Source: Planctomycetota bacterium
GTDB lineage: Bacteria; Planctomycetota; JAJSAM01; JAJVHW01
Reading direction: 5' to 3'
Assembly: GCA_965248445.1 (NCBI GenBank)
Contig: CBDFJG010000003.1
Location: 256,001-320,000, forward strand
DNA: 64,000 nt
The translations under genes and the position numbers were made by a program. How positions within the stretch are numbered: position 1 is the first letter of the stretch; each line of letters starts with the position of its first letter. Below, one piece after another: positions 35,258-41,033 of this stretch. Below the pieces are notes generated by a model that worked only from the letters and a program-made list of their open reading frames with translations, ran no database searches and was not told the origin of the DNA.

Positions 35258-35413
35258 CTCGGCGCGGGCGTAGAGTCAGCCCGTGAAGAAGATCCTCCTC
35301 GCCGTACTCGTGATCGCGATCGTCGCAGGGATCGGCGCGCTCGTGTTGGTCGGCAATCTGGATCGGATCGTCGAGCACGCGATCGAGGCGGTCGGCAGCC
35401 GGGCAACCCGCGC

Positions 35414-36945
35414 GTACCCGTTCAGGGTATGACGATCCGCGGCCTCAGCGCGTGATCGGGAGCGCGACGAGAGCCGGCGGCGAGCGGTTGTGCGCGAGTG
35501 CCGCGCTGACGTCTGCGAGGTAATCGAAGACGCTCTCGCCACGCTGGCGGAGCGTGGCGGTGACGGTCAGGATGCGCTCGACGAAGCGGAGTCCGCGCTC
35601 GCTCTGACTTCCGTGCGTTGCGCGTCTCCACAGGACCGGCTTGCGCACCGCGCGCTCAGCGGCGTTGTTCGTCGGGGAGACGCCAGGGACGTCGGCGAAG
35701 GTCCACAGAGCCTCCGCTCGGTCGAGCAGATGCCGAGTCGTTCCGCGTACTCGGCGGTGCTTGCTGTCTGCGCCGCGCACGAGCAGCGTCAGGAGTCGGT
35801 CCCATGTGAGACGCAGCTCACGCCGCATGCGGTCGCGGTCCCCGTGCTCGCCGAAGTGACGCTGAGCTCGCATGACAGCCTGGGCGAGACGCACGGCCTG
35901 CTTGCCGAAGCGCCGGCCGCCGCGCGAGCCCTCGGCCAGCGCTCGAAAGTCCCTCTCGAGATGCGCCCAGCAGATCTGGCGGCGCTCGGTGGGATGCTGG
36001 TCGTAAGCGCCCATACGGTCGGTCACGAGGACGCCCCTGAAGCGCTTGCCCACGAGTCGCCGCATGGCCTTGGCGCTCCTGCGCCGATCGATACGATGGA
36101 CCGTGGCGTGCTCACAGACCGCGCTCCACAGCCAATGCAGCGTGCCACGACGCGACCACGGTGTCTCGTCTACATAGGCGACGCTGCTCGTGCGTACGGC
36201 CCCGAGGGCCTCGATGTGCGCTGAGGAGATGGCTCCCGACACCCGCTCCTCGATCGCACTGACCGTGCCCGGTGACATCGAGACGCCGATGACGTCACGC
36301 AACAGACGACTGGTCTCGCGCCGCGACAGGCGGAAGACGCCGACCAGAGCCGCGGTGAGCGCACAGAGTCGCGGGCCGAAGGGACTCGCCGTCACACCGC
36401 TTGGCAGCGAGGCAGTGGACGTGGCGCCACAGTCCGTGCACCGTGCCCGGTGCAACCGGTGCTCGGTCACCTGGATCAGCCGTGGCGGGACCTCGAAGAC
36501 CTGCTGGCGTGTCGGGGCGCGATCGATCGGGACGAGCACGTCGCTCCCACACGCGCTGCACTCGCGCGGGCGGTGGTCCTCTACGCCATCGACCTCGGAC
36601 TCGTCCACGAGCTTGCGCGTCGCCCCTTTGTGGCCGGGCTGCGCACCCTGGCGCTTGTCCGACGGCGGCTTGCGCCGCCGCCGCTTCTTGGACCACGACG
36701 GATCCGAGGACGGTGGGCGCGAGGAGGTGCGGGAGTCCCGGCGAAGACGGCTCTCGAGATCGTCGATCCGTGCCGCCTGCCGCTCGATCACCTCCGCCTG
36801 CTCGGCAATCGTCTCGTCCCGAGCGTCCAGACGACGGGTCAGGCGCTCGACCAGATCACGCAGCTCATCGGTGCCCACATCCGATTCATCGACCGAACGG
36901 AAAGCGATCTGGATCCGAGCTCAGAACCAAGGGCTGAACGGGTAC
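35414..36945 (-). mobile_element. IS66-family element copy 2, 1532 bp
   Basis: Same IRs and transposase as copy 1; its own flanks (ACCCGCGC and GGCTGGGC) do not match each other. Confidence 0.95.
35445..36878 (-). CDS. IS66-family transposase
   Basis: Protein identical to 17183-18616. Confidence 0.95.
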   Translation of the reverse strand: MGTDELRDLVERLTRRLDARDETIAEQAEVIERQAARIDDLESRLRRDSRTSSRPPSSDPSWSKKRRRRKPPSDKRQGAQPGHKGATRKLVDESEVDGVEDHRPRECSACGSDVLVPIDRAPTRQQVFEVPPRLIQVTEHRLHRARCTDCGATSTASLPSGVTASPFGPRLCALTAALVGVFRLSRRETSRLLRDVIGVSMSPGTVSAIEERVSGAISSAHIEALGAVRTSSVAYVDETPWSRRGTLHWLWSAVCEHATVHRIDRRRSAKAMRRLVGKRFRGVLVTDRMGAYDQHPTERRQICWAHLERDFRALAEGSRGGRRFGKQAVRLAQAVMRAQRHFGEHGDRDRMRRELRLTWDRLLTLLVRGADSKHRRVRGTTRHLLDRAEALWTFADVPGVSPTNNAAERAVRKPVLWRRATHGSQSERGLRFVERILTVTATLRQRGESVFDYLADVSAALAHNRSPPALVALPITR

Positions 36946-37790
36946 GGCTGGGCCATGGACCATCCGGAGAAACCGCCTCCCACTTCGCAGAGATCCTCCC
37001 GTCCCTACGGCGGCACTTCCATTGGCCGCCGTGCGCCTCAAGCGATTCGGCCACTGCCTTGGGGAGCACTCGTGCCACATGCCAGTAGGGCGAAGGCGCG
37101 GTCATGAGGAAGTCACGTGCGCTTCGTGGGTGGCGCTTCGCGTCGATGTTGGTCTGGTGAACGCCGTTGTCCCGCCACTCCGTGTTGAGAACGTGGATCA
37201 TCTCGCGGTCGGTATAGAGCGCCCGCAGCCGAGCCGACGTATCAGTCCACCCCTCCTTCGCCTCGAGCTTCATGTCACGGGAGAACTCCACCCATCCGGA
37301 CCCGGCAGAGATCTCGAAACCGTCAGGGTCTCCGCCCGCCTCCAGCGGAATCAGCGCGCGACTTGCGAGCTGCTGATCGACGAGTTCCTCCATGTCGGCC
37401 TGCTCGTCGGCCGAGGGAGGCTTGCCGATCAGTGCGTCCCAACGTGCACGGGCGCACGCCATTAGATGGGCCCGGGCAGCGTCGCGGAAGCCCGCCGGCG
37501 GCTCACGGTTCTCGAGGGAGTTCTCGAATACCGAGGTCCCATGAGGGAACCCACTCACGCCGTCGCGCAGGATCTGGGCGGCGAGAAGCGCCAAGTCGTT
37601 CTCCGACGGTTCCGGTTGCTCCTGCGCGAAGCCGACTCCGGTCATGCCGAGCAAGGAGACTGCCGCCGCCGCTACGACGCAGGCGCATCGGGCAGGAGCA
37701 CCCCGCAACGCCGACGTGAAGTTCACGCGGCTCCAGCGTGGCCTCGTCAGCGGGGGACGAGACCACGCGTTGGGATTGTGGCTCACGACG
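36946..37790 (-). pseudogene. Hypothetical secreted protein, 3'-truncated by IS66
   Basis: Signal-like AAAAVSLLGMTGVGFAQEQ; the frame runs without a stop into the IS66 left end at 36945; start uncertain. Confidence 0.5.
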
Positions 37791-37794
37791 CTTC

Positions 37795-39057
37795 CTAGGT
37801 GCAGTCGGGAAGCGTGTACGTCTTGACGCTGCTGCTCGGCGCGATCGAGTAGCAGCACTGATGGCCCTTCTTGGCCTTGAAGGCGGTCTGGTGCGCGCGC
37901 AGGACCAAGCCGATGGGGATGCTACACGACTGTGTCCACGTCGATACGGTGGTGGCAACCATGTTCACGGTGCTCGTGCCCACGGTGCATGTGCCATCGT
38001 CCTCACACTTGAACTGGTAGTAGAAGATGCGATCGGTCGTCGTTCCCGCGGTCCAACCGCGCGGACAGGTCACTGCCACTGACGTCTTCACGCACTTCCC
38101 GCACGCCGTGGTGGGAACTGATGCTGGCGGCTGCTGCGCCGGAACCGTCGTGGGGTAGCAGTCGTCGTCCGTCACCGTACCGGCGGGGAGTCCGGGCTCG
38201 GCGTCGAAGAGGATGCCACCGAAGCGAATGAAGCTGTTGATCGTTCCCAATGTCGACGTGGCCATCACGGTGAGGGTGGCCCTCTCGCTCGGGTACGCGA
38301 GCGCTGCGGACGGGTCGAACGCGATCAAAGCCGTGGCGCGGCTGTCCCCCGCGAGGACGGTGACCGTCGATGGCAGTGTGAGGGCGTCCAACAGCCTTGC
38401 GTCGCCCGAGAACGACAGAGTGTACTCGAGATCGGAGGACACCACGTCGTCGAGCAGGACGGTGAGTTCCACGTCGCCGGGCGTCCGAACGCCCTCCACG
38501 ATCGACTCGTCGTCCGGGACGATCGTGTGAGCCAGCATGTCGGTGTTGGCTTGGTAGACTCCGAGGTCGTCCTCCCCGAGGACGCCTGTCGTGGGGTTCA
38601 CCGTCATCACGCCCGGCCGCCCTACGTAGACGTAGAACTTCTGGTCGGCATCGATGAGCGCAGGGTGGAACGACAGGGCGTTCACCATCGGGATCTTGGC
38701 GGTCACACGGGTGCCCGCGCCATACGGCTCGTAGGAAACGAGCGTCTCATCGAGGGTGTGGTAACGCGTCGAGCCCGACTCGGCCCAGGTCACGCCGCCA
38801 CCGTCGAAGTCGAGCGCGTAGGCCACGACGACGTCGGTCGTGGGGGTCGCGTAGTCGGTGACGACTTCCACGTACCCGTGGCTCGCCACCGTGTCGATGA
38901 AGACCGGCGATCCACCGTCCACGAGGGTCGTCGCCGATCCCGTCCCCGGGTTCCACGTGGCCGACTGGATGTCACCAGCAAATGCAGTAGCCGTGGACGA
39001 GGCGAGAACGCCCAAGACCAGCGGCAGCACGAATCTATTCATCACATTTTCCTCCAT
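37795..39057 (-). CDS. Secreted beta-rich protein with Cys-rich C-terminal domain
   Basis: Signal peptide MNRFVLPLVLGVLASSTATAFA; Thr/Val-rich Ig-like body; 10 Cys in the last ~115 aa, ending DCT. Confidence 0.75.
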   Translation of the reverse strand: MEENVMNRFVLPLVLGVLASSTATAFAGDIQSATWNPGTGSATTLVDGGSPVFIDTVASHGYVEVVTDYATPTTDVVVAYALDFDGGGVTWAESGSTRYHTLDETLVSYEPYGAGTRVTAKIPMVNALSFHPALIDADQKFYVYVGRPGVMTVNPTTGVLGEDDLGVYQANTDMLAHTIVPDDESIVEGVRTPGDVELTVLLDDVVSSDLEYTLSFSGDARLLDALTLPSTVTVLAGDSRATALIAFDPSAALAYPSERATLTVMATSTLGTINSFIRFGGILFDAEPGLPAGTVTDDDCYPTTVPAQQPPASVPTTACGKCVKTSVAVTCPRGWTAGTTTDRIFYYQFKCEDDGTCTVGTSTVNMVATTVSTWTQSCSIPIGLVLRAHQTAFKAKKGHQCCYSIAPSSSVKTYTLPDCT

Positions 39058-39097
39058 GGTTTGCGAGCCCCAGTGCGGCTACCCTCTACCTGGGGCC

Positions 39098-39127
39098 AGA
39101 GTAGATCGACGGCCCAGGACCTGTCAA
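39098..39127 (-). promoter_or_regulatory. Putative sigma70 promoter for the cargo genes
   Basis: Minus strand TTGACA-N18-TACTCT upstream of 39057; a second TTGACAGGTC lies at 39160-39169. Confidence 0.45.
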
Positions 39128-39247
39128 CACGCTGGATCGGCGGGCGAGGCGGAACCCGCGACCTGTCAAGGCGCCGGGTAGGGCTCTTGAGGCGGCCGGA
39201 CATTGCGATGAAGGGCGTGGAACTCCGCCGCGGCAGGGTGGTCGATC

Positions 39248-39509
39248 TGCAGCGGTAGTGCAGCGGTGGTCGGATTCGCCCGATCCGGAGGCGCGCGGCA
39301 GATCGCACGCAGAAACCGCAAACCACTGTTCTCGAAGGACTTACGCTGGTCGGGGCGAGAGGATTTGAACCTCCGGCCTCTTGCTCCCGAAGCAACGAGA
39401 GATCGTTGTCCAGCAAGGACTTACGCGTGTCCCTCGCTGCACAAGCCGCACAAGAGGCAGGAGCGGGCGGACGTTGTGCAGCGGTAGTGCAGCGGTAGTG
39501 CAGCGGTGA
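39248..39509. mobile_element. attP-like site: tRNA-Pro 3' core flanked by arm-type repeats
   Basis: TGCAGCGGT(AG) 11-mers x2 at 39248-39269 and x3 at 39477-39509; AAGGACTTACGC at 39335-39346 and 39415-39426 bracket the tRNA fragment. Confidence 0.7.
39347..39395 (-). pseudogene. 3' half of tRNA-Pro(CGG) (att core)
   Basis: Reverse complement TTGCTTCGGGAGCAAGAGGCCGGAGGTTCAAATCCTCTCGCCCCGACCA: anticodon arm (CGG), T arm, acceptor 3' strand and CCA. D arm and 5' acceptor strand are absent. Confidence 0.85.
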
Positions 39510-39529
39510 TCCCTGGCGGAGATCGTGTC

Positions 39530-39665
39530 CCGGCCAGCGCCGACAACGTTTTCGACTACCTCGCACAGGTCAGCGCCGCCCCCGCGCACAACCGATCGCC
39601 GCCCTCGCTCGTCGCGTTGCCGACGACGCGGTGATCGGCGAGACGGTCAATGGCTGAACATCCAT
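39530..39665 (+). pseudogene. Degenerate 3' end of a related IS66 element
   Basis: ..GTTTTCGACTACCTCGCACAGGTCAGCGCC..GCGCACAACCGATCGCCGCC.. aligns by eye to 18530-18647; decayed IR (GCTGAACATCC). Confidence 0.65.
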
Positions 39666-39761
39666 GAGAAGGCCTCTTGTGTCAAGGCGTCGGATCGACT
39701 TGGCGATCCGTCCACCGCAACCGATGCCGGCTCCCTCTGCACGCATCCATCCGCACTCGTC

Positions 39762-40165
39762 GTAACCGTTCACCCCTTCGTCGCGAGCCAGTATCCAGAT
39801 CGTTCGGCCACCGGTCGATCAAGATGTTGTGGGCGAGCGGCAGGACGAGGATCTGCGGGCGATGGTCGAGGACCTTCTGGCCTGGATCGAGGAGCTGGAG
39901 CGTCGCGAAGCGAAGCATCTGCGCCGCATCGACGAGCTCGAGTCGCGTCTGAAGCGTGACTCCCGCAACAGCTCGAGGCCTCCGTCGTCGGACCCGGCGT
40001 GGTCCAAGCGCCGTCGCGGCCGAAGGCCGCGTAGCGGTCGCAAGCAGGGCGGACAGCCGGGCCATGAGGGCACGGCGCGCGAGCTGGTGGATCCGTCCAA
40101 CGTCGATGAGACCAAGGACCACCGTCCCGACCGCTGCGACGCGTGCGGACACGACGATCTCGAGC
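39762..40165 (+). pseudogene. 5' fragment of a second IS66 lineage (left IR and transposase N-terminus)
   Basis: GTAACCGTTCACCCC left end at 39762; ORF from 39829 (..RDSRNSSRPPSSDPAWSK..GGQPGHEG..DHRPDRCDACG) is then truncated. Confidence 0.75.
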
Positions 40166-40309
40166 AGGGGGCGAGCGGAGCGAGCCCTCACGAGGCGCAG
40201 GGGGCTCCCCCGGCAATTTGGTCTCCTTCTTCGTCATCGCTGATTCCTCCACCGCCCTGCACAGTAATCATCCGGGGGGTCGGTGTCTCAGCGATGTTGG
40301 CACAGAGGG

Positions 40310-40415
40310 CAGGCGCTCGACCAGATCACGCGGCTCATCGGTGCCCACATCCGATGCATCGACCGAACGGGAAGCGATCTGGATCCGAGCTCAGAACCAA
40401 GGGCTGAACGGATAC
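40310..40415 (-). mobile_element. Solo IS66 left end (106 bp)
   Basis: Matches 36840-36945 with 4 substitutions by eye, including terminal GTATCC versus GTACCC. Confidence 0.9.
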
Positions 40416-41033
40416 ACCCGCGCCACGGTCATGGTCGACGCGGTCGACCTGCAGATCACCGAGGGCAAGGGGACGATCAGCGGGGTCTCTGTCGGTAGTC
40501 CGGCGGGCTTCGCGGCTGAGCGCGCGTTCGCGTTCGATCGCGTGACTGTGGAACTCGATCCGGACGCGCTGACGCGCGTGCCGATCGTCGTCCGGCGGGT
40601 CACGGTCGACCGCTGCGACGTCACGTATGAATGGCAGCTCCACGGAAGCAACATGTCACGCCTGCAGGAGAACGTCCGCGAGTACCTGGCGGGCGAACGC
40701 ACCATCCGGGAGGCCGCCGGAGGGGATGAACCCTCCCGCGTCGTCATCGAGGAACTCGTGATCTCGGGCGGCACGATCGACCTGACGGCGTCGGCGCTCG
40801 GTTCAGCGGTCGTTGCGCTGCCGCTCGACCGGATCGTGCTCCACGACGTGGGCAAGAAGGAGGGCGGCGCAACAGCGGGGGAGATCACCGCTGAGCTCGT
40901 GCGCGCGCTCACTCGCCGCGTGATCGAAGCCGTCGCGAACTCCGGTGTCGACGTCCTGGACGATGCCCGGAAGACGGGCGAGAAGATCCTCGAGGGCGCG
41001 AAGGACATCCTCGACGGCGCGCGCGGGGACTAG

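What the first reader, a model, noticed from the sequence alone, without database searches (positions are those of the whole stretch)
39248..39509. Complete attP-like site (2+3 arm repeats around a tRNA-Pro 3' half) with no integrase, carried inside the transposon
Seen: a tRNA-Pro(CGG) fragment from anticodon stem to CCA; identical AAGGACTTACGC boxes on both sides; TGCAGCGGTAG 11-mers, two about 77 bp to the left and three about 81 bp to the right. Established: integrated elements have arm sites on one side only (attL/attR); arms on both sides of a tRNA 3' core is attP geometry, as in lambda P1-2 and P'1-3. Inference: the cargo is the junction of an excised circle or tandem array captured by IS66. 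The result would be a non-autonomous element with two mobility routes, DDE transposition and trans-acting site-specific recombination with the host tRNA-Pro, which could also rearrange the chromosome. The integrase at 338 has different repeats and is probably not the cognate enzyme.
Basis: partly seen in the sequence, partly recalled or inferred. Interest (0 to 1): 0.82.

Follow-up and report, generated by a model that had tools for sequence, protein, structure and literature searches.

The report
Prophage junction copied by IS66 transposon
This is the seam between two viruses stacked one after the other in a bacterial proline-tRNA gene; a jumping gene copied the seam into an unrelated gene, leaving an intact-looking integration site far from its enzyme, most likely by accident.

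Summary
In detail: a 49-bp exact copy of the tRNA-Pro(CGG) 3' end, with 2+3 arm repeats, lies inside a 5,002-bp IS66 composite transposon that has an 8-bp target duplication and an identical second copy on contig C2. It is best read not as the attP of an excised circle but as an internal junction (chimeric attI) of a tandem prophage array at tRNA-Pro(CGG). The genome holds three intact cognate integrases (85-99.5% alike). One of them was in cis until an IS66 insertion split a cargo gene; shared 8-mers and restored reading frames show this. In the C2 copy the three-repeat arm still leads into lysis, tail and head genes. Two-armed cores are ordinary here: 5 of 5 distinct full-length fragments tested in this genome, 7 of 29 in relatives. 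All 8 genomes of the family carry 3-7 cores. Across 14 related integrases the arm sequence tracks the N-terminal domain (rho 0.77), not the catalytic domain (0.09). Nothing shows the relocated site being used, so 'two mobility routes' is unproven. An earlier scan note on a decaying prophage in this genome agrees.

The parts
35283..35413 (+). 5' part of the DUF748-like host gene split by the transposon; ends in TSD ACCCGCGC (35406-35413)
   Evidence: 249-aa frame restored; weak DUF748 hit, below cut-off
35414..36945 (-). Complete single-ORF IS66 element (IS66A; transposase 35445-36878), 32 full copies in the genome; supplies the left outer end
   Evidence: (NF033517 above cut-off)
36946..37858 (-). 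5' half of a membrane-anchored cargo gene (start codon uncertain), cut by IS66A at GGCTGGGC (36946-36953); its 3' half is at C4:1078739-1079331, about 4 kb from integrase C
37795..39057 (-). Prophage cargo gene, 420 aa, with a signal-peptide-like N-terminus; no family found
   Evidence: no Pfam or NCBIfam hit; best atlas score 0.81, lead only
39248..39268 (+). Two arm-type sites on the P' (attL) side; the end of prophage C
39335..39346 (+). AAGGACTTACGC box, probable host accessory-factor (IHF/HU-like) site; inferred
39347..39395 (-). att core: tRNA-Pro(CGG) 3' fragment; probable 7-bp crossover region = anticodon loop 39385-39391
   Evidence: identity in several relatives stops at the loop (45 nt)
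39415..39426 (+). Second AAGGACTTACGC box
39437..39463 (+). Three 9-bp-period repeats (C/A)NGCA(C/G)(A/G)AG, candidate excisionase sites on the attR side; inferred
39477..39508 (+). Three arm-type sites on the P (attR) side; the far end of the neighbouring prophage
39533..40306 (.). IS rubble: IS66 3' fragment (39533-39634), IS66B 5' fragment (39761-40169), end of an rve-family IS (40184-40306)
40307..40415 (-). 109-bp left-end remnant of IS66A (95%), a variant found only here and in the C2 copy; supplies the right outer end
40416..41033 (+). TSD ACCCGCGC (40416-40423) and the 3' part of the split host gene

Best explanation
The site is a chimeric internal attachment site (attI) of a tandem array of temperate tailed prophages that integrate in the anticodon loop of tRNA-Pro(CGG) in a Planctomycetota lineage. 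(1) A new phage integrates at the already occupied tRNA, so the far arm (attR side) of the newcomer ends up fused to the near arm (attL side) of the resident prophage C. That gives P-core-P' geometry without any circle [inferred from shown anatomy]. (2) IS66A inserted into a cargo gene between integrase C and its att, and IS insertions and deletions reduced the other side to rubble ending in a 109-bp IS66A left end [shown by flanks and frames]. (3) IS66A transposase moved the 5-kb piece between the two outer ends into a DUF748-like gene, with an 8-bp TSD [shown]. (4) Exchange between two IS66A copies also separates the donor copy from integrase C in the assembly [shown in the assembly; could be an assembly swap]. 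The att is a passenger. It looks intact and intact integrases exist in trans, but no use of it is seen.
For: Arms are integrase sites: 10 of 11 tandem arm arrays in the genome flank a full or partial tRNA-Pro core, and the 11th ends at an IS. The exact 20-mer occurs in 7 GTDB loci, 4 of them about 100 bp from a tRNA-Pro(CGG) core. 8 of 12 loci with an integrase relative have the core 1.7-9.9 kb downstream. Arm similarity follows the integrase N-domain (rho 0.77, 0 of 2000 permutations) and not the catalytic domain (0.09, 332 of 2000) in 14 rows. Link to integrase C: the IS66A at C4:1077199-1078730 shares one flank 8-mer with the cargo edge and the other with the C2 copy's outer flank; both joins restore reading frames; 18 cross-paired flank pairs against 0.09 expected. 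Array context: G006:C64:17850-76058 is a complete 58-kb prophage with these arms at both ends. On C2 the right arm is followed on the same contig by lysis, tail, head and terminase genes in the same order, and the C2 end overlaps by 12.5 kb (99.97%) the C4 start that runs on to integrase A and the tRNA. Two-armed cores: 5 of 5 here, 7 of 29 in relatives (0.3% expected by chance); 5 of 6 intact tRNAs have the arm on the 3' side and 0 of 6 upstream. 3-7 cores in each of the 8 genomes of the family. Sequencing contigs: cargo depth about twice the flank (16.4 vs 8.25) and both outer junctions present.
Against: Both arms of the window site are the same type, as a true attP would be; in relatives 6 of the 7 two-armed cores have unlike arms by eye. 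About 11 kb of IS rubble and RHS-repeat cargo genes lie between the C2 right arm and the first phage gene, so that link may itself be rearranged. The 12.5-kb overlap is shared with three other contig ends, so the path to the tRNA is not unique. The body of prophage C cannot be traced: its primase is cut by an IS1595. 22 of 29 relative cores do not score as two-armed. The covariation test uses related, non-independent rows, and one pairing is my reconstruction.
Confidence: 0.78

Rival explanations
1. True attP: an excised circle of prophage C was re-integrated by IS recombination or transposition, keeping its attP, and IS66A later copied it.
For: Same arm type on both sides; spacing identical to functional ends; C4:90204 is a two-armed core with integrase B 580 bp from its arms.
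Against: The phage genes beyond the right arm on C2 continue at 99.97% into the integrase-A prophage, not C. The same right-hand 100 bp is joined to a different left arm at C4:1978704. Stacking is common in the family.
Confidence: 0.12
2. Functional dual-mobility element or mobile landing pad: the IS66 unit spreads a working att site that resident integrases or incoming phages use, giving integration at new loci or chromosome rearrangement.
For: All conserved att features are intact. Integrases A, B and C keep the TGAR, HSLRH, LGH and TTQxY motifs, and an HTH_17 xis-like gene lies upstream of the two tested, A and C. Two IHF/HU-family genes are present. A chimeric attI is used for excision in S. 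agalactiae (PMC5704250, passage).
Against: Only 2 copies, 100% identical, so intactness may only reflect recency. The left arm is joined to the same right arm in both copies and no recombinant with the tRNA is assembled. No IS66A end-to-end junction in the genome. The unit's right end is a truncated variant found only here, which looks like a chance composite.
Confidence: 0.1
3. Sub-claim: the donor (C2) copy is still in cis with integrase C in the cell, and the assembly swapped flanks across two identical 1.5-kb IS66A copies. Only the window copy is a true orphan.
For: Only 14 of 32 full IS66A copies keep their own TSD; the assembly breaks in prophage repeats.
Against: IS-IS recombination is a recognised cause of missing TSDs (PMC11708052, abstract); a 4-contig assembly suggests long reads, which usually span 1.5 kb (inference).
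Confidence: 0.25

Closest known systems
Chimeric attI of tandem ICE/IME/prophage accretions (S. agalactiae ICE-IME at tRNA-Lys; S. thermophilus ICESt1/CIME)
   Same: An internal junction made by integration into an occupied site carries arms of two elements around a tRNA 3' core (PMC5704250, passages).
   Different: Here the elements are tailed prophages, both arms are one type, and the junction has been copied out of the array by an IS66 composite transposon.
Islander tDNA islands, anticodon-centred (A) subsite, tandem arrays
   Same: 3' tDNA fragment, tyrosine integrase, crossover in the anticodon loop (PMC4383910, passages).
   Different: Islander lists only 4 tandems of 3 or more among 3919 islands, while this family has 3-7 cores per genome (not all shown to be in one array). 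The window core is on another contig from the tRNA and has no integrase beside it.
Lambda-type attP (about 240 bp; core, arm, IHF and Xis sites)
   Same: 262-bp span, arm repeats on both sides, candidate host-factor boxes, candidate Xis repeats on the attR-side arm (PMC4111918, passages).
   Different: The three-site cluster is on the P side, not the P' side (lambda arrangement recalled); the site is chromosomal, and made of two prophages.
IS-bounded composite transposon (single-ORF IS66)
   Same: Outer IS ends, 8-bp TSD, passenger DNA.
   Different: One flanking IS is only a 109-bp end, and the passenger includes an att junction.
pPDL2 opd island (transposition plus attP integration); Mesorhizobium tripartite ICE
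   Same: Two mobility routes in one element (PMC3516476, abstract); dispersed att sites that rearrange a chromosome (PMC5882170, author summary).
   Different: Both carry their own integrases and are shown to work; here no integrase is in the unit and no activity is shown.

Membership tests
Chimeric attI of a tandem tRNA island array | Core identical to the 3' part of a host tRNA | tested here: met
   49/49 to C4:25273-25321
Chimeric attI of a tandem tRNA island array | One arm belongs to an element whose integrase points toward the site | tested here: met
   Integrase C linked by shared 8-mers and a restored frame
Chimeric attI of a tandem tRNA island array | Other arm belongs to a different element | tested here: inconclusive
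   The C2 copy leads into a head-tail block continuous with prophage A, but across IS rubble and a non-unique overlap
Chimeric attI of a tandem tRNA island array | Collinear with the intact tRNA in one array | tested here: inconclusive
   Not so for the window copy (relocated); possible for the C2 copy through a contig overlap; same-orientation cores on one contig in relatives
Lambda-type attP | Arm-type sites on both sides that match the integrase N-domain | tested here: met
Lambda-type attP | Both arms from one element, on a circular phage genome | tested here: inconclusive
   The site is chromosomal; no viral contig has the arm 20-mer (0 hits); one search points to two elements
Lambda-type attP | Recombines with attB given Int and host factor | not testable with these tools
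   needs an assay
IS66 composite transposon | IS ends at both outer borders, TSD, transposase | tested here: met
CIME / non-autonomous integrative element | Flanked by attL and attR, excisable in trans | tested here: not met
   One central site, borders are IS ends
Tripartite ICE | Several att pairs and conjugation genes that reassemble a circle | not tested
   The elements have phage head and tail genes; no search for conjugation genes was run

The most novel reading that the evidence does not exclude
IS66 composite transposition seeds working prophage attachment junctions at new chromosomal places. Because this phage family integrates into already occupied cores, the relocated junction could act as a mobile landing pad for incoming phages and as a partner for the three resident integrases, tying IS activity to prophage relocation and chromosome rearrangement. 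In addition, the family looks like a natural set of integrases that share one tRNA core but have diverged arm/N-domain pairs, which may be what lets 3-7 elements stack at one tRNA.
Probability: 0.12. Interest if true: 0.68.

Novelty: new variant of a known kind. Interest (0 to 1): 0.36.

Why it matters
As it stands this is a well-documented accident: it shows how IS expansion takes a prophage array apart and scatters intact-looking att sites, and that a two-armed tRNA core is not proof of a circle. It matters more if the relocated site works, since an IS would then be creating new phage integration sites. The by-product is useful on its own: about 20 integrases that share the tRNA-Pro anticodon core but differ in arm motif, in step with their N-terminal domain, offer a direct test of how arm specificity is encoded.

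Tried and rejected
Window integrase at 338 as the cognate enzyme: rejected (26.7% identity, other repeats). Free phage attP: the arm 20-mer has 0 matches in IMG/VR. IS66A circle junctions: none in the genome; no joint of the unit's two ends and no empty-site joint among those listed, but contigs drop rare variants and only part of the tables is shown, so this proves nothing. Phasing across the core failed because the contigs break at the shared 49 bp. No RNA holder listed. Contig 25 of run X6 has 47 letters before 36946 that do not fit the window; the letters were not shown, so I could not check whether they continue the cargo gene. IS66B flank pairing gave 0 self and 0 cross pairs, probably because my ends were off; uninformative. 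The 420-aa cargo protein has no Pfam or NCBIfam family and no atlas hit above 0.81. The DNA-level mosaic test of the C2 integrase returned nothing at the thresholds used. Literature: searches returned 0 papers; the listings (20 of 35 shown; 14; 3) showed no title or abstract start on an att junction carried by a composite transposon, and none on how IS66 transposes. These are listings from an open-access library, not proof of absence. No supplements were read. Rows dropped: L018 and L060 lack the N-domain, and 6 more distant rows were left out of the 14-row test; three duplicate loci and 2 cores near contig ends were left out.

Full report
Observation. The window is C3:256001-320000 of a 5.40-Mb, 4-contig, 69% GC genome. 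Close relatives of its integrase come mostly from Planctomycetota records. Bases 39347-39395 match the 3' 49 nt of the single tRNA-Pro(CGG) gene at C4:25273-25349 exactly. Arm repeats start at 39248 and 39259, and at 39477, 39488 and 39499; AAGGACTTACGC boxes lie at 39335 and 39415. The tandem arm 20-mer has 3 matches in the window against 0.00 expected. Three 9-bp-period repeats at 39437-39463 are conserved at the same place in related right arms.

The transposon is real. The unit 35414-40415 runs from the right end of a full IS66 (NF033517) to a 109-bp variant left end that occurs only here and on C2. It is flanked by the 8-bp duplication ACCCGCGC, and removing it restores a 249-aa frame. 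An identical copy at C2:851326-856327 has no duplication and is probably the donor. In sequencing contigs of sample S1 the cargo has about twice the depth of the flank (16.4 vs 8.25 in X1; 7.5 vs 4.8 in X3), and the outer junctions of both copies are present. This sample may be the one the genome was assembled from, so it checks the assembly but is not independent. A second study (X5, X6) holds the cargo at about 96-97% identity, joined to a left arm and the core.

The cognate integrase. The genome has 22 PF00589 matches. Integrase A (C4:21799-23061, beside the tRNA), B (C4:90884-92146) and C (C4:1082892-1084115) are 85-99.5% identical and keep the catalytic motifs; A and C, the two tested, have an HTH_17 gene upstream. 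The IS66A at C4:1077199-1078730 shares one flanking 8-mer with the inner edge of the cargo and the other with the outer flank of the C2 copy. Joining across these 8-mers restores a membrane-anchored cargo protein and a second frame with a signal-peptide-like start. Genome-wide, 18 IS66A flank pairs match across copies against 0.09 expected, while 14 of 32 full copies keep their own duplication. So the left arm once lay about 6.5 kb downstream of integrase C, a later IS1380 included, within the 1.7-9.9 kb seen in relatives. The window's own integrase at 338 is 26.7% identical and has other repeats.

The repeats are arm-type sites. In the genome 10 of 11 arm arrays flank a full or partial tRNA-Pro core. 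In GTDB the 20-mer gives 7 loci, of which 4 lie about 100 bp from a tRNA-Pro(CGG) core and 3 are in unrelated taxa with no core or integrase match. Of 12 loci with an integrase relative, 8 have the core downstream; the other 4 are partial or distant matches. Among 14 integrases of the inner group, arm similarity correlates with residues 31-58 (rho 0.77; 0 of 2000 permutations) and not with the catalytic domain (0.09; 332 of 2000); over all 20 rows the values are 0.57 and 0.19. Kin are not independent, and the pairing for integrase C is my reconstruction. L059 is the clearest case: 93% identical N-domain, 74% catalytic domain, same arms.

Why an array junction. G006:C64:17850-76058 is a complete 58-kb prophage (lysis, tail, head, terminase, replication, integrase) with these arms at both ends; its far core has unlike arms on the other side. 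Our genome has several 85-97% identical sets of these genes, and most contig ends fall in them. On C2 the three-repeat arm is followed, after IS rubble and RHS-repeat cargo, by lysis, tail, head and terminase genes in the reference order. The C2 end overlaps C4:1-12510 at 99.97%, which runs on to integrase A and the tRNA, but three other contig ends share that overlap. With a repeat score of at least 8 of 10, 5 of 5 distinct full-length fragments in this genome and 7 of 29 in relatives have arms on both sides (left alone or with right 17, right 12; random windows 260 of 5000); intact tRNAs have them on the 3' side in 5 of 6 and upstream in 0 of 6. All 8 genomes of the family have 3-7 cores; in the rest of the order 3 of 9 have any. 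Some loci are the same DNA reached by different searches and are not independent. A tentative order is tRNA - A - junction C4:1978704 - second A-type copy - this junction - C (inference).

Mechanism. Shown: arm-integrase association, former cis link, IS66 transposition with TSD. Inferred: formation of the junction by integration into an occupied tRNA; crossover in the anticodon loop (identity in several relatives stops at 45 nt); host-factor and Xis roles of the boxes and 9-bp repeats (two IHF/HU-family genes exist; the likeness to the IHF consensus is recalled). Not shown: any use of the relocated site. The tRNA is occupied, no recombinant is assembled, and no IS66A end-to-end junction exists in the genome.

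Comparison. Chimeric attI sites in tandem accretions are known, and one is used for excision (PMC5704250, passages). Tandem tDNA islands and the anticodon subsite are catalogued by Islander (PMC4383910, passages). Lambda att anatomy was taken from PMC4111918 (passages). IS-IS recombination explains missing TSDs (PMC11708052, abstract). pPDL2 (PMC3516476, abstract) and tripartite ICEs (PMC5882170, author summary) are working systems with their own integrases. Searches showed no report of an att junction carried by a composite transposon (listings only).

Verdict. A real, recent, probably accidental relocation of a prophage-array junction: a new variant of known parts, interest 0.36. The bolder reading, a transposon-borne landing pad, is not excluded (about 0.12) and can be tested directly.

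Noticed in passing
G000 and relatives G001-G007: Every genome of the family has 3-7 tRNA-Pro(CGG) cores; G016:C76 has 5 core-like copies within 10 kb with decayed left arms and no integrase hit, like an eroded array.
   Followed up: partly
22 integrase loci: One shared tRNA core, but at least five arm motif classes that track the integrase N-terminal domain.
   Followed up: partly
G000:C3:489475-489492 and C3:1210085-1210113: Only the anticodon-arm part of the core, each next to the end of a similar HTH-like frame and followed by the right arm of a different family; looks like one secondary integration site used twice, the first beside a comM fragment.
   Followed up: partly
G000:C4:1978538-1978853: A second two-armed core without integrase; its left side is fused to unrelated DNA with no IS end seen at the join.
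   Followed up: partly
G000:C4:1286117-1286164 and C4:288090-288138: Two junctions with unlike arms in reciprocal order (types D-E and E-D), each beside its own integrase.
   Followed up: partly
G000, IS66A copies: 18 cross-paired flank pairs against 14 self TSDs: extensive IS-mediated rearrangement, or assembly swaps; at least 64 full copies of one IS1380-type element.
   Followed up: partly
G000, 13 sites: AAGGACTTACG box, 10 of 13 beside tRNAs or att cores, also at tRNA-Leu and tRNA-Phe; once as a full dyad at C4:894622-894640. Candidate binding motif of a host recombination factor.
   Followed up: partly
G000:C2:11259-12384: A truncated integrase whose N-terminus is like integrase C and whose remainder is like A/B: recombination between co-resident prophages.
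   Followed up: partly
G000:C2:856528-862165, C3:458168-463940, C4:105447-116414, C4:1966304-1971502: Large secreted repeat proteins (YD/RHS in the one scanned) recur next to array fragments as probable prophage cargo.
   Followed up: no
L056, L060, L070: Related integrases (57-62%) target a different tRNA-Pro isoacceptor with the same att layout.
   Followed up: no
window:338-1450: Unrelated tyrosine integrase with its own tandem repeats just upstream; 63% identical to C2:808428-809546.
   Followed up: partly
G000:C4:1689-4499: Terminase large subunit with LAGLIDADG/homing-endonuclease domains in frame, probably an intein.
   Followed up: no
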